Shown here: positions 17,719-23,649 of the stretch, in pieces
Position numbering within the stretch: position 1 is the stretch's first letter
Layout of the letters: every line of letters starts with the position of its first letter
NCBI RefSeq assembly: GCF_058153355.1
Contig: NZ_CM177019.1
Reading direction: 5' to 3' (one strand)
Length of the DNA stretch: 64,000 nucleotides
The notes under the pieces: generated by a model
What the model saw: the letters and a program-made list of their open reading frames with translations, nothing else
Told to the model about the DNA's origin: nothing
Databases searched by the model: none
Translations under genes and position numbers: made by a program

Positions 17719-18042
17719 TTGATACTCTCTTCCTCCATCACAATTTCAGAAATGCACGTGTGATTTTTTGGCATCCGGCGTTTGGACTATGTGGAGTTCA
17801 AGAGTGGGAAAGTTACAAGAGGTTGAGGGGATAATTAAAGGGATGCTTATGACATTAGATATCCGGTTAGGTACGGATATCGTTGTTATTAAATCTAATT
17901 GATACGTTAATTGTTCACTGAGTATTATTAAAAATGGGGCGTTGAAACGCCCCAGAAAATAAAGGGTAATATATAACAGAAGGTTTATATAGTCAGAAGC
18001 AAGATAGCGCTTCTAAGGAAAGTGGCTTGAGGGGGCCACTTA

Positions 18043-18075
18043 TATGTTGGGGAGGCAAAGCCTCCCACAACATAT
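18043..18075 (-). terminator. Perfect inverted repeat (atgttggggaggc / gcctcccacaacat) just downstream of the porin gene
   Basis: 13-bp stem with 4-nt loop directly 3' of the porin stop at 18091. Confidence 0.6.
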
Positions 18076-18090
18076 CTTTGAGTAATCAGA

Positions 18091-19173
18091 TTAGAACTGG
18101 TAAACCAATCCTACAGCAACGATATCATCGGTAGCAACGCCAGATGCTTTCGTGAAATCGCTCTTATCAATCAGGTTGATTTTGTAATCAACAAAAGTGG
18201 ACATATTTTTGTTGAAGTAATAGGTTGCACCTACATCAATATATTCAACCAGGTCCTGATCACCCCACGCACCCAAGTCTTTTCCTTTAGATTGCAGGTA
18301 AGCAACGGACGGACGCAGACCGAAGTCGAACTGATATTGTGCAACTACTTCGAAGTTTTGTGCTTTGTTGGCAATATGGTTATTACCAAAAACAGTCATG
18401 TTCTGGGTTTCAGAATAGGTGGTAGCCAGATAGATGTTGTTCGCATCATATTTCAGACCAGCTGCCCATACTTCAGCATTTTGACCAGATGCATTCAGGC
18501 TGTTGTTACCGTAGATAACCTGATCATTAGTGCGGTCAGATTTAGCATAGGTTGCACCTACACCGAATCCTTCATACTCATAAGTAGTGGAGAAACCGAA
18601 ACCATCACCGTTAGCTTCAGTTACGTCAGTGCGGTCATTTTTACCCTGATACTGAGCAGCAAAGTTCAGACCATCAACCAGACCAAAGAAGTCGTTGTTA
18701 CGATAAGTTGCAACACCTGTGGTGCGACCAGTCATGAACACATCTGTTTGGGTCCAGGTATCGCCACCGAATTCTGGCAGAACGTCGGTCCATGCACCGA
18801 TATCGTATGCTACACCGTAGTTACGGCCATAATCGATGGAGCCGTAGTCACCGAATTTCAGGCCAGCGAAGGCAAGACGGGTTTTATCTTTGGAAGAACC
18901 TTGAGATTCAGCACGGTTGCCTTTGAATTCATATTCCCACTGACCGAAACCAGTCAGTTGATCGTTGATTTGGGTTTCGCCTTTGAAGCCCAGACGAACA
19001 TAAGTTGTGTCGCCATCATCTGCATCGTTAGAAGAGAAGTAGTGCTTAGCATTAACTTTTCCGTACAGATCCAGCTTGTTACTGTCTTTATTGTAAATCT
19101 CTGCTGCCTGAGCAGACATCGCCATCAGTACTGATGCAGCTACAGCAGAAATTGCCACTGTTAATTTTTTCAT
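18091..19173 (-). CDS. nmpC: Intact NmpC/OmpD-type general porin of the OmpC/OmpF family
   Basis: 360-aa ORF with signal peptide ([23 protein letters not shown]) and C-terminal ...VGLVYQF; closest to recalled NmpC; prophage-type cargo on the opposite strand to emrE-ybcM as in DLP12. Confidence 0.8.
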
Positions 19174-19703
19174 CGTGAGCCCTTTTATTTGAACTATTAT
19201 TTAAAAATGATGTCACTGCACCACAAATATTCATCTAATCAATGAGATTATTTCAAGATGTAAGTTTTAGTTTCTCATTTAAATTGTGAAGTAGATCCCT
19301 ATTTTTATCTGAACTGTTTCTATTGCACACAATGCATGACTATTTTGTGAACGAATATAAATTTGGTAGTCAAATTATATTAAAGGTTGTTATTTATGAT
19401 TGACTCATAATTTATTTATTTAATTTAAATAGCCTAAAAATAACCATGGAGATTATTTGCATGATATTTGTTTAGATTTGTTAATGTAGTTGAGGTGATT
19501 TTATTTAATACGCAATATAGCGCCGCTTGATATTAGTTCTATTTTTTTTTTGCGTAAGATAGATGAGACAAACTGAGACGCATAATGGTTTGCAAGGCTC
19601 TAATACTTTGATGTTGAGGATGTGATGGGGCATGTACGTGCATAGTACAATGATGTCCATGCCGGTGTGGATAATCTCCAGGCTTATCCGGTGCGCCGTA
19701 AAA

Positions 19704-20177
19704 CCCCGTCCTTCAGGGCGGGGATATAAGGCGCGGTTTTCCACCTGACCAGGTGTTTGCTGTTGTTCAATGTATTGGCGGATGACGGATATTGGCGCAC
19801 CTCCGCAGCTACTGGCAAAATAGCCGGGACTCCACAAAACGCCTTTGTAGTAATACCTGACTGCAATATCTGGTCGATCTCGTCGCAGTAATCTACCCGA
19901 TACGCCTTTGTGGCTGTTTACCAGACTGGATATCGCCAGTTTGGGAGGATAGTTAATTAACAAATGGACGTGATTCTGGTTCGCCATCCATTTCAACCAG
20001 TTCAGCTTCAAAATCAGCACATACATTTGAAAAGTAAGTGCGTAGTTTTTCTGTCGCGTCATGGTCAAAAATCTGACGTCGGTATCTGGTGACAAAGACC
20101 CGGTGAACATGCATCAGAAAAACACAGTGCCTTCCACGCCGGATATCGGTTTCTTTTTTCACAGACCAAAGTATCAT
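19704..20177 (-). pseudogene. tnpA: IS200/IS605 Y1 (HuH) transposase TnpA, split by a frameshift
   Basis: N-terminal part in ORF 19953..20177 (HCVFLMHVHRVFVTRYRRQIF...ELVEMDGEPE); HuH motif and catalytic-Tyr region in a different frame in ORF 19505..20110 (NHVHLLINYPP...SCGGAPISVIRQYIEQQQ); frame switch near 19965..19985. Confidence 0.7.
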
Positions 20178-20184
20178 TTGGCCT

Positions 20185-21393
20185 GTGAAACGACTACAAG
20201 CATTTAAATTCCAGTTAAGACCAGGTGGTCAACAGGAGCGTGAAATGAGGCGCTTCGCAGGCGCATGTCGTTTCGTTTTCAATCGTGCTCTGGCACGTCA
20301 GAATGAGAATCATGAGGCCGGTAATAAATACATCCCTTACGGGAAAATGGCTTCCTGGCTGGTTGAGTGGAAAAATGCCACTGAAACGCAATGGCTTAAA
20401 GATTCGCCCTCACAGCCATTGCAACAGTCACTGAAAGACCTTGAGCGGGCTTACAAAAACTTCTTCCAGAAGCGGGCTGCTTTTCCCCGATTCAAAAAGC
20501 GGGGACAGAATGATGCATTCCGCTACCCGCAGGGCGTTAAGCTCGATCAGGAAAACAGCCGTATTTTTCTGCCGAAACTGGGCTGGATGCGCTACCGGAA
20601 CAGCCGTCAGGTCACGGGTGTTGTGAAAAATGTCACGGTCAGCCAGTCCTGCGGTAAGTGGTACATCAGTATTCAGACAGAAAGTGAAGTATCCACTCCG
20701 GTTCATCCTTCAGCATCAATGGTCGGGCTGGATGCTGGCGTGGCTAAACTCGCCACGCTGTCAGATGGCACAGTCTTTGAGCCTGTAAACAGTTTTCAGA
20801 AAAACCAGAAGACGCTGGCGAGACTTCAGCGACAGTTAAGCCGCAAGGTCAAATTCAGCAACAACTGGCAGAAGCAGAAACGCAAAATACAGCGACTGCA
20901 TTCCCGTATCGCAAATATCCGCAGGGACTACCTTCACAAAGTCACAACGACCGTCAGCAAAAACCACGCAATGATAGTCATTGAGGATTTGAAGGTCAGC
21001 AACATGTCAAAGTCAGCAGCGGGTACGGTCAGCCAGCCGGGGCGCAATGTCCGGGCAAAATCAGGTTTAAACCGTTCGATACTGGATCAGGGCTGGTATG
21101 AAATGCGCCGCCAGCTTGAGCACAAGCAGCTCTGGAGTGGCGGTCAGGTGCTTGCTGTTCCGCCAGCGTACACAAGCCAGCGTTGCGCGTGCTGTGGTCA
21201 TACAGCGAAAGAAAACCGCCTGTCACAAAGTAAATTCAGATGCCAGGTATGTGGATATACAGCGAACGCCGATGTAAATGGCGCTCGTAACATTTTAGCG
21301 GCGGGGCACGCCGTTCTTGCCTGTGGAGAGATGGTGCAGTCAGGCCGCCCGTTGAAGCAGGAACCCACCGAAATGATTCAGGCGACAGCCTGA
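20185..21393 (+). CDS. tnpB: TnpB (IS605 OrfB), RuvC-like RNA-guided endonuclease; intact; GTG start
   Basis: 402-aa ORF; N-terminus resembles TnpB; C-terminal zinc finger CxxC...CxxC ([37 protein letters not shown]) and RuvC-like segments. Confidence 0.85.
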
Positions 21394-21432
21394 ACGTAGC
21401 AGGGATCCACGTCCTTCAGGGCGTGGAGGATG

Positions 21433-22105
21433 TCAACAAACAGGTTGAATTAACTTCGCGCCCTGGTTTTTGACATTACCCACCGCGCGCGACACAGGGT
21501 GCCAGGTGAACTGGTTTGCTGGAACACAGCCACTGGCAGAAATTTCAGAGGCTTCTTTACCGCTAATCTCTTGCCGCATCCATTCCCGCGCAGCTTCTGG
21601 CGACAGTACCAGCGGGCGGCGGTCATGAATATCTACCAGACCCTGGTCTGCTGCTGCAGTGACAATTAAAAATCCTTCGGCTTCGTCACCACGCTCAAAC
21701 GGTGTGCTACCTATCGCGGCTATAAAAACAGGTTGTCCATCAGCGCGATAGATAAAATAAGGCTGTTTTTTTGTCGCCTTCTTTTTTCCACTCAAACCAG
21801 CCATCGGCAAAACAGATTGCCCGACCATGTTGCCAGAGCGGTTTAAACATACGACTGGTTGCCGCAGTTTCTACGCGGGCGTTAATCAGCGGCGGTTTAT
21901 CCCACCATCCGGGAGCATATCCCCAGAAAACCGGATCCAGATGAAGGTGTTCATCACGTTCACTGAGCAGAAGAACTTTGGTTCCCGGCGCGACGTTGTA
22001 TCTGCCAATGGGTTCGGGATCGTAGGGAATATCGCGTTCAATATCTTCCGCGAGAAGCGCAAGGTAATCTTCACGCGTTTGGGATTGGGCAAAGCGTCCA
22101 CACAT
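21433..22105 (-). pseudogene. yedK: YedK (SRAP/HMCES-family abasic-site processing protein) disrupted by a +1 frameshift in a homopolymer run
   Basis: N-terminal 121-aa ORF (MCGRFAQSQ..., catalytic Cys2) and C-terminal 131-aa ORF overlap in different frames; 7-nt T run at 21766..21772 where the intact reading requires 6. Confidence 0.8.
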
Positions 22106-22213
22106 AGCAACCTCCTGAGATCATACTGAAAAGAATAGGAGAGGGGGCGGGTAAAATCTATGTGATGCAGAGGTAACGATGTTCCCGCTGTTGGCCACAG
22201 CGGGAATGAGGGA

Positions 22214-22447
22214 TTACTTCTGAATTAAATAACGAATGGTCGGCCCGTCTTGCTGAATATCCAGCACCGTATAGCCGTGATTACGCGCATCCAGTGGAAT
22301 ATTATTGATCGACTGCGGACAGTCGCTCACCACTTCCAGGATCTCACCTTTTTTTAATTGCGGCATCGCCTCAAGGGTTGCGACTGCCGGATAAGGGCAG
22401 GGTTCACCCACCATATCAAGGCGGTAATCAGGAACGATATTTTTCAT
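22214..22447 (-). CDS. yedF: TusA-like sulfurtransferase-family protein YedF
   Basis: 77-aa ORF with CPxP motif (EPCPYP). Confidence 0.88.
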   Translation of the reverse strand: MKNIVPDYRLDMVGEPCPYPAVATLEAMPQLKKGEILEVVSDCPQSINNIPLDARNHGYTVLDIQQDGPTIRYLIQK

Positions 22448-23649
22448 GCGATCTCCTTAGCAGTCTGCGGTGCCGCACGGCGGAAGAAGCGTTTTTCCCA
22501 GCCGATAATCAACATCAGCGCAGCAAACAGCAGCAAATATGTCACCAGCAGGCCACCCATCGGACCAAAGGTTTTCAGTAGGTTGATTTTGTCCCAGTCG
22601 GTGGCCAGCGCCGGAGCGAAATCATCCCAGTAATACGCCAGAATCGTTGAGCCGATCACGTTGCCCAGACCGACCCACCAGTAGTGCACCTGGCCTTCTA
22701 CCGCGCGGTACATCCAGCCGGTTTCGCAACCGCCTGCCAGCACGATGCCAAAACCAAACAGTAAACCACCGATTACCGCGTTCGGCCCCGCCCACATGAT
22801 TTTGGGTTCAACGCCTAACTGGACGTAACTGAAGATCCCGATGGCACTTACCGCCATACCGATAATGATTGCTTTCGCCATGTGGGTACGTCCGGTGATC
22901 CACATATCGCGGAACGCCGAAGTAAAGCAGATTTGCGCACGTTCAATCAGTAAACCAAAGCCGACGCCAAACAGCATTGCCAGCCCCAGTTTTGGTTGGT
23001 TCATCGCCGTCAGCAGCGCCCAGCCCAGCATGCCGAAAAAGACCAGCATCCCGAGACGAAAACGACGCCGCGCCTGATCCGGTTTTTGCGTCAGCGGTGA
23101 GGCGGCAGAAACTTTCTGCATTTTCACGGGAATACGGAAGATGGGCAGCAGGGTAAAGCGCGCGCCAAACCATGAACCAATGGCAGTGGCGATGGCAAAG
23201 AACCAGGCATGCAGCGAGAACTGAGGAATGCCGGTAAAGAACGCCGCCAGGTTACAGCCCATTGCCAGACGCGCGCCAAAACCGGCGATAATGCCGCCAA
23301 TGATGGCCTGCATAATGCGGATACGGCTGCGCGGCATGCGTAGTTTGACATTGTTGGCCCACAGCGCTGCAGCAAAGCAGCCGCCAAACATACCGAGGAT
23401 CATCATGCCGTCGATGCGGGTTAATGGCGATCCTTCCAGATGAATAATTTTAAAATAACCCCACTCTTCAGCATGGACGCCGAACAGCTGCAGGAGCTGA
23501 CCGCCCCAACGGGTAAATTCACCCGTGACAGCCCAAAAGGTGCCAGTGATGCCAAAGTAGTAAGTGGAGAGAATACCCGCCGCGATGACCGCAGGGATGG
23601 GTGCCCAGAATTTAATCAACCAGGCGTGTTTGAATTGCTGCCATGACAT
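22444..23649 (-). CDS. yedE: YedE, YeeE/YedE-family inner membrane transporter (selenium/thiosulfate-related)
   Basis: 401-aa polytopic membrane ORF overlapping yedF. Confidence 0.88.
   Translation of the reverse strand: MSWQQFKHAWLIKFWAPIPAVIAAGILSTYYFGITGTFWAVTGEFTRWGGQLLQLFGVHAEEWGYFKIIHLEGSPLTRIDGMMILGMFGGCFAAALWANNVKLRMPRSRIRIMQAIIGGIIAGFGARLAMGCNLAAFFTGIPQFSLHAWFFAIATAIGSWFGARFTLLPIFRIPVKMQKVSAASPLTQKPDQARRRFRLGMLVFFGMLGWALLTAMNQPKLGLAMLFGVGFGLLIERAQICFTSAFRDMWITGRTHMAKAIIIGMAVSAIGIFSYVQLGVEPKIMWAGPNAVIGGLLFGFGIVLAGGCETGWMYRAVEGQVHYWWVGLGNVIGSTILAYYWDDFAPALATDWDKINLLKTFGPMGGLLVTYLLLFAALMLIIGWEKRFFRRAAPQTAKEIA

What the first reader, a model, noticed from the sequence alone, without database searches (positions are those of the whole stretch)
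21400..21440. The IS right end abuts the yedK stop codon
The right-end subterminal hairpin ends at 21426 and the yedK stop codon is at 21433..21435 on the opposite strand. The insertion therefore sits at, or possibly replaces, the extreme 3' end of yedK. For TnpB-type elements the guide portion of the RNA is templated by the DNA immediately flanking the right end, so any guide here would be antisense to the yedK 3' end.
Basis: inference. Interest (0 to 1): 0.35.

Follow-up and report, generated by a model that had tools for sequence, protein, structure and literature searches.

The report
IS609 end supplies yedK's stop codon
A known mobile element (IS609) landed inside the stop codon of the DNA-repair gene yedK and supplies a replacement stop from its own last four bases, adding one amino acid; this is an ordinary, nearly harmless insertion that recurs at other gene ends.

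Summary
Window 19688..21436 is a 1749-bp copy of IS609 (IS200/IS605 family), 98% identical to the K-12 copy. Four independent E. coli insertion sites fix its ends: TTAT always lies immediately left, and the element always ends ...GGATGTCAA. The last base is 21436, so the yedK stop (21433..21435, minus strand) lies inside the element.

K-12 carries the exact empty site (GGCTTAT|CAAACAGG). On the yedK strand, native GTT TG|A TAA became GTT TGT TGA. The insertion split the native TGA, added one Cys, and the terminal TCAA gave a new stop.

The same geometry (NN|A-TAA to NNT-TGA) recurs at K-12 ydcO, at three P1-like plasmid genes and in metagenome contigs. That is about five-fold above a crude null.

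tnpB is intact, with its D183/E267/D363 triad. tnpA is dead here. By family rule, a guide RNA would be templated from 21437 onward. It would be antisense to the last yedK codons, but its expected target is the empty yedK allele (TTAT plus the same sequence), present in at least 1703 complete genomes.

The element and mechanism are known, so interest is low to moderate. yedK also carries a private +1 frameshift.

The parts
19684..19687 (+). TTAT target tetranucleotide, the presumed TAM. Its reverse complement ATAA is the third base of the native yedK TGA plus a following TAA.
   Evidence: TTAT lies immediately 5' of the LE at four independent E. coli sites and on plasmids. The K-12 empty site is GGCTTAT|CAAACAGG.
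19688..21436 (+). IS609 (IS200/IS605 family), 1749 bp; the top strand is the window + strand.
   Evidence: 98.06% identity over 19684-21436 to the annotated K-12 IS609. Boundaries are defined by where identity among copies stops.
19704..19723 (+). LE subterminal hairpin CCCCGTCC-TTCA-GGGCGGGG. It shares the 13-nt core GTCCTTCAGGGCG with the RE hairpin, in the same orientation.
   Evidence: Read directly from the sequence.
19745..20177 (-). tnpA (Y1 HUH transposase), inactivated here by an extra T at 19974 (frameshift) and a TAG-to-CAG stop loss at 19745-19747.
   Evidence: Base-by-base comparison with the intact 143-aa copy in strain R32_14_1F. Pfam Y1_Tnp E 5e-40 for the intact copy.
20185..21393 (+). 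tnpB (insQ), 402 aa, an intact RNA-guided endonuclease homologue.
   Evidence: Pfam OrfB_IS605, Cas12f1-like TNB and HTH_OrfB_IS605 domains. ISDra2 TnpB structures match at E 2e-55, and D183, E267, D363 align to the ISDra2 RuvC motifs.
21290..21436 (+). Predicted omega/reRNA scaffold: the 3' end of tnpB plus the RE.
   Evidence: Only sub-threshold Rfam hits: HgcC E 0.063, RAGATH-18 E 0.16, sot0042 E 0.34. Fold z = -2.8. Three conserved hairpins, with 5 pairs kept through double changes in 6 relatives. The assignment rests on homology, not on RNA data.
21406..21427 (+). RE subterminal hairpin TCCACGTCC-TTCA-GGGCGTGGA.
   Evidence: All 9 pairs are kept in 6 relatives.
21433..21436 (+). TCAA, the right-end cleavage motif (TEM) and the last four bases of the IS.
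   Evidence: Every IS609 copy examined ends with it.
21433..21438 (-). The present yedK end. The TGT (Cys) codon at 21436-21438 takes its T from the IS and its TG from the native stop. TGA at 21433-21435 lies wholly within the IS.
   Evidence: K-12 has ...CCT GTT TGA TAA; the window has ...CCT GTT TGT TGA. The protein is 223 aa ending QPVC versus 222 aa ending QPV.
21437..21456 (+). RE flank that would template the 16-20 nt guide (CAAACAGGTTGAATTAACTT); antisense to the last yedK codons.
   Evidence: It is the first non-IS base onward. Its first 16 nt (21437-21452) occur only once in the window. The family rule comes from Karvelis et al. 2021.
21433..22105 (-). yedK (SRAP/HMCES-type abasic-site protein). 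It is frameshifted in this window by an extra T in the run 21766-21772.

Best explanation
A copy of IS609 inserted, as IS200/IS605 elements do, immediately 3' of a TTAT on the strand opposite to yedK. That TTAT is the reverse complement of the A-TAA formed by the last base of the yedK TGA stop and an in-frame TAA behind it.

The insertion split the stop codon (TG|A). The element ends in TCAA, which reads TTGA on the yedK strand. The gene therefore now reads TGT TGA: one extra Cys, then a stop codon made of element DNA. No target duplication and no loss of native residues occurred. This part is shown.

The rest is inferred from the family mechanism.
- The intact tnpB and the structured RNA encoded by its 3' end plus the right end would yield a guide templated by 21437 onward.
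- Its cognate DNA target is TTAT plus CAAACAGGTTGAATTA. That combination exists only in chromosomes with an empty yedK site, whether never occupied or precisely excised.
- The system would therefore cut empty alleles and be restored by recombination (homing/retention). At the occupied site the TAM is absent, so the site is left alone.
- Because tnpA is dead in this copy, excision would need a transposase supplied in trans.
- The antisense relation of the guide to yedK is a by-product of where the element landed.
For: Boundaries and family:
- 98% identity to K-12 IS609 from 19684 to 21436.
- Four independent sites share TTAT| ... TCAA|.
- No terminal inverted repeats; two like-oriented hairpins.
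- Y1_Tnp and OrfB_IS605 domains are present.

Empty sites:
- K-12 reads ...GGCTTAT|CAAACAGG....
- The K-12-type empty junction is present in at least 1703 of 5426 complete genomes.
- The IS-yedK junction is present in at least 666.
- The reconstructed ydcO empty site was found at 92/92 identity, with at least 80% cover in 2047 genomes.

Protein effect: 223 aa ending QPVC versus 222 aa ending QPV. RefSeq annotates yedK ending 3 nt inside the IS end.

TnpB:
- Full-length alignment to ISDra2 TnpB with the catalytic D/E/D and four Cys kept.
- 11 synonymous versus 9 non-synonymous codon differences from the K-12 copy.

Mechanism from the literature:
- The roughly 16-nt guide comes from the RE flank, and the TAM equals the TnpA target (Karvelis 2021).
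- Donor-joint cleavage and retention (Meers 2023).

No terminator-like site lies on the + strand between the tnpB stop and yedK. The + strand GC skew is positive overall, consistent with the top strand being on the lagging-strand template.
Against: - No RNA or activity data exist for this element.
- Rfam gives only sub-threshold matches to RNA families, and the covariation set is small.
- IS609 showed no transposition in E. coli mutation-accumulation lines (PMC5009759).
- tnpA is a pseudogene in the window and is annotated as one in K-12, so the homing cycle may be idle.
- Whether empty alleles were never occupied or arose by precise excision cannot be told from sequence.
- TTAT as the TAM of this TnpB is assumed from the family rule, not measured.
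Confidence: 0.85

Rival explanations
1. Coincidental proximity. The IS ends at or before the hairpin (about 21427), and yedK keeps its native stop and 3' flank.
For: The hairpin is the most conspicuous end feature and ends 6 nt before the stop.
Against: IS609 copies at four loci stay identical through GGATGTCAA and diverge only after it. K-12 yedK diverges from the window exactly between TG and A of its stop.
Confidence: 0.01
2. The junction is a selected safe harbour rather than a one-off. The IS609 end motifs (TTAT, complement ATAA; TCAA, complement TTGA) make insertion into an ochre or tandem stop self-repairing. Such insertions therefore survive preferentially at the 3' ends of convergent genes.
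For: Same phase (NN|A-TAA to NNT-TGA) at:
- yedK (+Cys);
- K-12 ydcO (+Tyr; IS609 1503161..1504908 overlaps ydcO from 1504905);
- a P1-like head-processing gene (Lys to Asn);
- a P1-like gene upstream of the defense-against-restriction protein A gene;
- pacB/terminase, in both full-length and 46-bp forms (Ile silent);
- metagenome sites L037 and L069.

In an annotation-blind sample, 5 clear plus 3 ambiguous of 32 sites have this geometry, against about 3% of tolerated TTAT sites expected (P about 0.003).
Against: - Other copies sit inside a gene (ytfA), in plain intergenic DNA (yhgE/hslO), or in another frame (Klebsiella TrbC reads 18 nt into the RE).
- The null uses a crude ORF caller that undercounts genes.
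- Sites were not phylogenetically de-replicated.
- The plasmid cases were picked because their annotations overlapped the IS.
- This reading complements the best explanation rather than excluding it.
Confidence: 0.5
3. Regulatory co-option. The tnpB-sense RNA or a TnpB-RNA complex acts on yedK, by antisense pairing with its mRNA 3' end or by DNA binding as in nuclease-dead TnpB-derived repressors.
For: The genes are convergent, with no terminator-like site between them on either strand near the junction. The guide and RE are complementary to the yedK 3' end.
Against: - The catalytic triad is intact.
- The element is polymorphic, and the same element sits at unrelated loci.
- At the occupied site the guide match is preceded by GTCAA, not TTAT, so TAM-dependent DNA binding is not expected.
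- yedK itself is frameshifted here.
Confidence: 0.04

Closest known systems
IS609 of E. coli K-12 (insQ/ydcM b1432 with yncK, between ydcL and ydcO)
   Same: Same element: 98% nucleotide identity, the same TTAT left flank and TCAA end. tnpA and tnpB are divergent, and tnpA is also defective. Its right end likewise overlaps the stop codon of the convergent gene by 4 nt.
   Different: A different locus (yedK rather than ydcO). There are 9 amino-acid differences in TnpB. The window copy carries an extra tnpA frameshift.
IS608 of Helicobacter pylori and ISDra2 of Deinococcus radiodurans (reference IS200/IS605 elements)
   Same: Single-strand 'peel and paste' architecture: subterminal hairpins, insertion 3' of a short AT-rich motif, and no target duplication. 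TnpB carries a right-end-derived guide RNA whose TAM equals the transposase target. The TCAA right-end motif is the same as I recall for IS608 (from memory).
   Different: The target is TTAT rather than TTAC or TTGAT. The genes are divergent, not co-directional. No biochemical data exist for IS609 TnpA. IS609 TnpB was purified in one screen, but no TAM or cis-cleavage data are reported for it in the section I read.
Geobacillus ISGst TnpB/IscB homing system (Meers et al. 2023)
   Same: The same logic is predicted: the guide matches the donor joint (TAM plus right flank), which is the empty yedK allele seen in K-12.
   Different: It is shown experimentally there and only inferred here. The local tnpA is dead, so no excision is expected without a helper.

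Membership tests
IS200/IS605 family (IS609) | Encodes a Y1 HUH transposase TnpA | tested here: met
   The orthologous intact copy matches Pfam Y1_Tnp at E 5e-40. The window copy is the same gene with a +1 frameshift and a stop loss, so it is a pseudogene.
IS200/IS605 family (IS609) | Subterminal hairpins at both ends in the same orientation, with no terminal inverted repeats | tested here: met
   The LE hairpin (19704-19723) and RE hairpin (21406-21427) share GTCCTTCAGGGCG on the + strand.
IS200/IS605 family (IS609) | Inserts 3' of a fixed short motif without target-site duplication | tested here: met
   TTAT lies at the LE flank of four chromosomal and several plasmid sites. Exact empty sites exist for yedK and ydcO, with no duplicated bases.
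IS200/IS605 family (IS609) | Near-identity to the named reference element | tested here: met
   98.06% over 1753 nt to the IS609 feature annotated in NC_000913.3.
IS200/IS605 family (IS609) | Active (top) strand lies on the lagging-strand template | tested here: inconclusive
   The + strand GC skew is positive over the window but weak near the IS. The K-12 map positions of both loci fit the rule, using replichore limits from memory.
TnpB-omegaRNA RNA-guided nuclease | RuvC D-E-D triad and zinc-ribbon cysteines | tested here: met
   D183, E267 and D363 align to the RuvC motifs of ISDra2 TnpB (the ISDra2 numbers D191/E278/D361 are from memory; D191 is confirmed). C334/C337/C353/C356 are present.
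TnpB-omegaRNA RNA-guided nuclease | Structured RNA scaffold spanning the tnpB 3' end and the RE | tested here: inconclusive
   Rfam hits fall below gathering scores: HgcC 21.9 versus 50, RAGATH-18 25.4 versus 44.9, sot0042 17 versus 88. Fold z = -2.8. 5 of 38 pairs show compensatory change in 6 sequences.
TnpB-omegaRNA RNA-guided nuclease | Guide templated by DNA just outside the RE, differing between copies | not testable with these tools
   At the DNA level, copies diverge exactly after TCAA. The RNA 3' end itself needs RNA-seq or RACE.
TnpB-omegaRNA RNA-guided nuclease | TAM-dependent dsDNA cleavage, with TAM equal to the TnpA target | not testable with these tools
   TTAT is assumed from the family rule.
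Nuclease-dead TnpB-derived regulators (TldR-like) | Loss of RuvC catalytic residues and fixed association with a regulated host gene | tested here: not met
   The triad is intact. The insertion is polymorphic and the element also sits at unrelated loci.

The most novel reading that the evidence does not exclude
The end motifs of IS609-type elements act as a built-in stop-codon repair. The target TTAT is the complement of A-TAA, and the terminal TCAA is the complement of T-TGA in the same phase. Insertion into an ochre or tandem stop of a convergent gene therefore costs at most one residue. Gene 3' ends become preferred long-lived harbours, and each such copy then carries a guide antisense to that gene's last codons.

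A corollary: the 46-bp LE/RE-fusion scars left when the body is deleted separate the TAM from the guide match. They would therefore be IS-free alleles that the element's own nuclease cannot cut.
Probability: 0.35. Interest if true: 0.45.

Novelty: already known. Interest (0 to 1): 0.3.

Why it matters
For annotation:
- The last codon and the stop of yedK in IS-bearing strains are partly or wholly element DNA. The 223-aa 'QPVC' YedK is an insertion allele of the 222-aa K-12 protein.
- The same holds for K-12 ydcO.

For biology:
- The locus offers natural occupied and empty allele pairs (at least 666 versus at least 1703 complete genomes) with a fully specified predicted TAM and guide.
- That makes it a convenient native system to test TnpB homing in E. 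coli.

If the recurrent stop-codon geometry survives a proper census, it would explain how a site-specific single-strand transposon finds neutral sites in a gene-dense genome.

Tried and rejected
- Rfam, permissive search over 18000-23000: nothing reached a gathering score.
- Exact RE-end pattern scan of GTDB representative genomes: only 4 hits. Three were distant taxa sharing only the terminal 24+ nt, which did not help the E. coli site census.
- Literature search for the hairpin and end sequences: only chance primer matches.
- Search for IS609 TnpB data: one purification mention, with no TAM or cis-cleavage data in the section read.
- A 46-bp scar allele at yedK: absent from all 5426 genomes.
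- The idea that the 46-bp element is a free-moving MITE lost support. The pacB site carries either a 1337-bp tnpB-containing IS609 derivative or the 46-bp form between identical flanks. That points to in-situ deletion across the 13-nt repeat shared by the two hairpins.
- The variant right flank GACACGG...: no similarity to the window, so it is not a local yedK deletion.
- The first whole-IS search (4311 genomes) was not site-specific, because the IS itself is 87% of that query. Junction-specific queries replaced it.

Full report
**What is at 21400-21440**

The + strand reads ...TGA(tnpB stop, 21391-21393) ACGTAGCAGGGA TCCACGTCC TTCA GGGCGTGGA GGATG TCAA | CAAACAGGTTGAATTAAC....
- The hairpin spans 21406-21427.
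- The ORF list gives a minus-strand ORF 21433..21828 whose TGA occupies 21433-21435.
- That ORF is the C-terminal part of yedK. The intact orthologue is a 223-aa SRAP-domain protein (Pfam E 9e-52).

**Where the element really ends**

The region 19684-21436 is 98.06% identical to the IS609 feature annotated in K-12 MG1655 between ydcL and ydcO. I compared copies at four unrelated chromosomal sites: yedK, ydcO, inside the TetR-family gene ytfA, and between yhgE and hslO.
- The sequence is shared from CCGGTGCGCC... through ...GGATGTCAA and diverges immediately outside.
- The base run just left of the element is TTAT in every case.
- The element is therefore 19688..21436 (1749 bp). It has no terminal inverted repeats and two like-oriented subterminal hairpins.

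The gene content is:
- a divergent tnpA (Y1_Tnp);
- tnpB with OrfB_IS605, TNB and HTH domains.

The stop codon of yedK (21433-21435) is the TCA of the terminal TCAA. It lies inside the element, not next to it.

**The empty site and the effect on yedK**

K-12 yedK ends ...CCT GTT TGA TAA GCC TGG AGA TTA T. The window reads ...CCT GTT TGT TGA CAT CCT CCA CG....
- In window orientation, K-12 reads ...ATAATCTCCAGGCTTAT|CAAACAGGTTGAATTAAC.
- That is exactly the window's left flank (to 19687) joined to its right flank (from 21437), with no duplicated or missing base.
- On the gene strand the insertion point is TG|A-TAA. The native TGA was split, the element contributes T-TGA, and YedK gains one C-terminal Cys (QPV to QPVC, 222 to 223 aa).
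- The SRAP domain ends at residue 211, so the change is probably harmless.
- RefSeq annotates yedK in IS-bearing strains with exactly this end.

**Population picture**

- IS609 occurs in most complete E. coli genomes, but that count is not site-specific.
- A 90-nt query across the RE/yedK junction is covered at 80% or more in 666 of 5426 genomes. This is a lower bound, since variant junctions align only partly.
- The K-12-type empty junction is covered in 1703 genomes.
- Further genomes keep the junction but differ 17 nt to the left, where a variable prophage-remnant island begins.

The insertion is therefore a common polymorphism.

**State of the genes in this window**

- tnpB is intact, at 402 aa.
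- It aligns end to end with ISDra2 TnpB structures (E 2e-55).
- D183, E267, D363 and the four zinc-ribbon cysteines are conserved.
- Against the K-12 copy it shows 11 synonymous and 9 non-synonymous codon differences.
- tnpA is dead. It has an extra T at 19974 and a TAG-to-CAG stop loss; K-12 shares the stop loss.
- yedK has one extra T in the run 21766-21772, which splits it into 121- and 131-aa ORFs. No other complete genome shares this, so it is either private or a sequencing error.

**How it most likely works**

Shown here: the insertion geometry above.

Inferred from the family:
- In ISDra2, the TnpB-bound RNA matches the tnpB 3' end and the RE. Its last ~16 nt come from the flank.
- The TAM equals the TnpA target (Karvelis 2021).
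- In Geobacillus elements, the nuclease cuts the donor joint left by excision and so retains the element (Meers 2023).

Applied to this copy:
- The guide would be CAAACAGGTTGAATTA(ACTT) and the target TTAT plus that sequence.
- This is the empty yedK allele. K-12 matches guide positions 1-19.
- In the window the first 16 nt occur once only and are preceded by GTCAA, so no self-targeting is expected.
That follows from the insertion site and is not evidence of regulation.

Support for a structured RNA is modest:
- Rfam hits to HgcC, RAGATH-18 and sot0042 over 21266-21449, all below threshold. RAGATH-18 is described as a TnpB guide-RNA scaffold (PMC11061315 abstract). That HgcC and sot RNAs are tnpB-3'-end RNAs is from memory.
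- A fold z-score of -2.8.
- Three hairpins conserved in six relatives, with five compensatory pairs.

No terminator-like site separates tnpB from yedK on the + strand, so read-through is plausible.

The orientation fits the family's lagging-strand-template rule, though the evidence is weak (plus K-12 map positions).

**A recurrent geometry**

The K-12 IS609 feature (1503161..1504908) overlaps ydcO (from 1504905) by the same 4 nt.
- The predicted ydcO empty site (TTTTTAT|TATCGG) exists verbatim, at 92/92 identity, with 2047 genomes covering at least 80% of the query.
- In those genomes ydcO stops at TA|A.
- The K-12 allele therefore reads TAT TGA, which adds one Tyr.

The same phase (NN|A-TAA to NNT-TGA) is seen at:
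- a P1-like head-processing gene (AAA TAA to AAT TGA);
- a P1-like gene upstream of the defense-against-restriction protein A gene;
- the terminase/pacB stop (ATA TAA to ATT TGA, silent);
- metagenome contigs L037 and L069.

I took an annotation-blind sample of 32 distinct right flanks from a metagenome scan.
- Five have a long ORF only in this phase, and three more are ambiguous.
- By comparison, none has a long ORF only in F0 and two only in F1, the other two frames.
- A crude null from 1 Mb of the same contigs puts such sites at about 3% of tolerated TTAT sites (P about 0.003).

Caveats: the gene caller undercounts genes, the sites are not phylogenetically independent, and the plasmid examples were chosen because annotations overlapped.

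Counter-examples exist: ytfA interior, yhgE/hslO intergenic, and Klebsiella TrbC in another frame.

The simplest reading is survivorship. The target contains the complement of TAA and the end contains the complement of TGA in the same phase, so these insertions are nearly silent.

**Comparison with what is known, and novelty**

This is IS609, a named element of a well-studied family, at a site already annotated in RefSeq genomes. The guide logic is textbook TnpB biology. I file it as already known. I found no description of the stop-codon geometry in the searchable literature, but it is a modest extension rather than a new kind of system.

**Verdict**

Interest is 0.3.

Noticed in passing
L138 2001-2046; L136 2501-2546; L137 2001-2046; L084, L069, L132, L114, L112, L053, L048 (metagenome loci): A 46-bp unannotated element, CCGGTGCGCCGTAAAACCCCGTCCTTCAGGGCGTGGAGGATGTCAA. 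It is IS609 LE bases 1-33 fused to the last 13 RE bases across the 13-nt repeat shared by the two hairpins, and is always preceded by TTAT. It is covered at 80% or more in 2715 of 5426 E. coli genomes, in prophages and P1-like plasmids. At the pacB site, identical flanks hold either a 1337-bp tnpB-bearing IS609 derivative or this 46-bp form, so it looks like an in-situ deletion scar. None occurs at yedK. Such scars separate the TAM from the guide match and would escape TnpB cutting (inference).
   Followed up: partly
L004 6906-6909 (K-12 1504905-1504908); L140 345-350: K-12 ydcO takes its stop codon, and the third base of an added Tyr codon, from the IS609 right end. IS-free genomes have ydcO ending CGA TAA directly against the ydcL terminator.
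   Followed up: yes
window 21766-21772: yedK carries one extra T in a T-run (7 versus 6), splitting the gene. None of 5365 complete E. coli genomes matches this stretch perfectly. It is a private pseudogenisation or a homopolymer sequencing error.
   Followed up: partly
window 19974 and 19745-19747: tnpA is inactivated twice: a +1 T, and a TAG-to-CAG stop loss. The stop loss is shared with the K-12 copy, which is annotated as pseudogene yncK. tnpB stays intact, the usual pattern of tnpB outliving tnpA.
   Followed up: yes
window 19670-19687 versus L003 (K-12 downstream of yedK): Only about 17 nt left of the TTAT are shared with K-12. Beyond that, the window has a prophage-remnant island (emrE, ybcL, ybcM, an ompC-like porin at 18091-19173) where K-12 has yedL-yedN-yedM-intG. 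Other genomes break at the same point. The IS sits 17 nt from a recombination or att-like boundary.
   Followed up: partly
L102 and 10 other metagenome contigs: An IS609 copy has the yedK-side left flank (GATAATCTCCAGGCTTAT) but a right flank GACACGGAAAACG... unrelated to yedK. The ytfA-site left flank likewise pairs with another right flank (L021). This suggests recombination between IS609 copies, or large deletions starting at the right end.
   Followed up: partly
L009 179-240 (Citrobacter amalonaticus): An IS609-like copy (92.6% identity, tnpA deleted) is flanked by TTAC instead of TTAT. It has AAAG instead of AAAA just 5' of the LE hairpin, a single covariation consistent with the IS608-type DNA-guide rule for target choice (the rule is as described).
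   Followed up: no
L008 8150-8173, L010 9190-9213, L011 7321-7344: The exact 24-nt right-end tail CCTTCAGGGCGTGGAGGATGTCAA occurs in Desulfopila, Parasutterella and Paractinoplanes genomes, next to otherwise unrelated sequence. The archaeal HgcC consensus in Rfam has a similar tail. The terminal hairpin plus GGAGGAUGUCAA appears to be conserved far beyond IS609.
   Followed up: no
L013 2478-2498 (Klebsiella IncHI1B plasmid): A 78%-identical relative of IS609 inserted at TTAT in another frame. The conjugation gene (TrbC family) reads 18 nt into the right end and stops at a TAA in the hairpin loop, so its C-terminus is element-encoded.
   Followed up: partly
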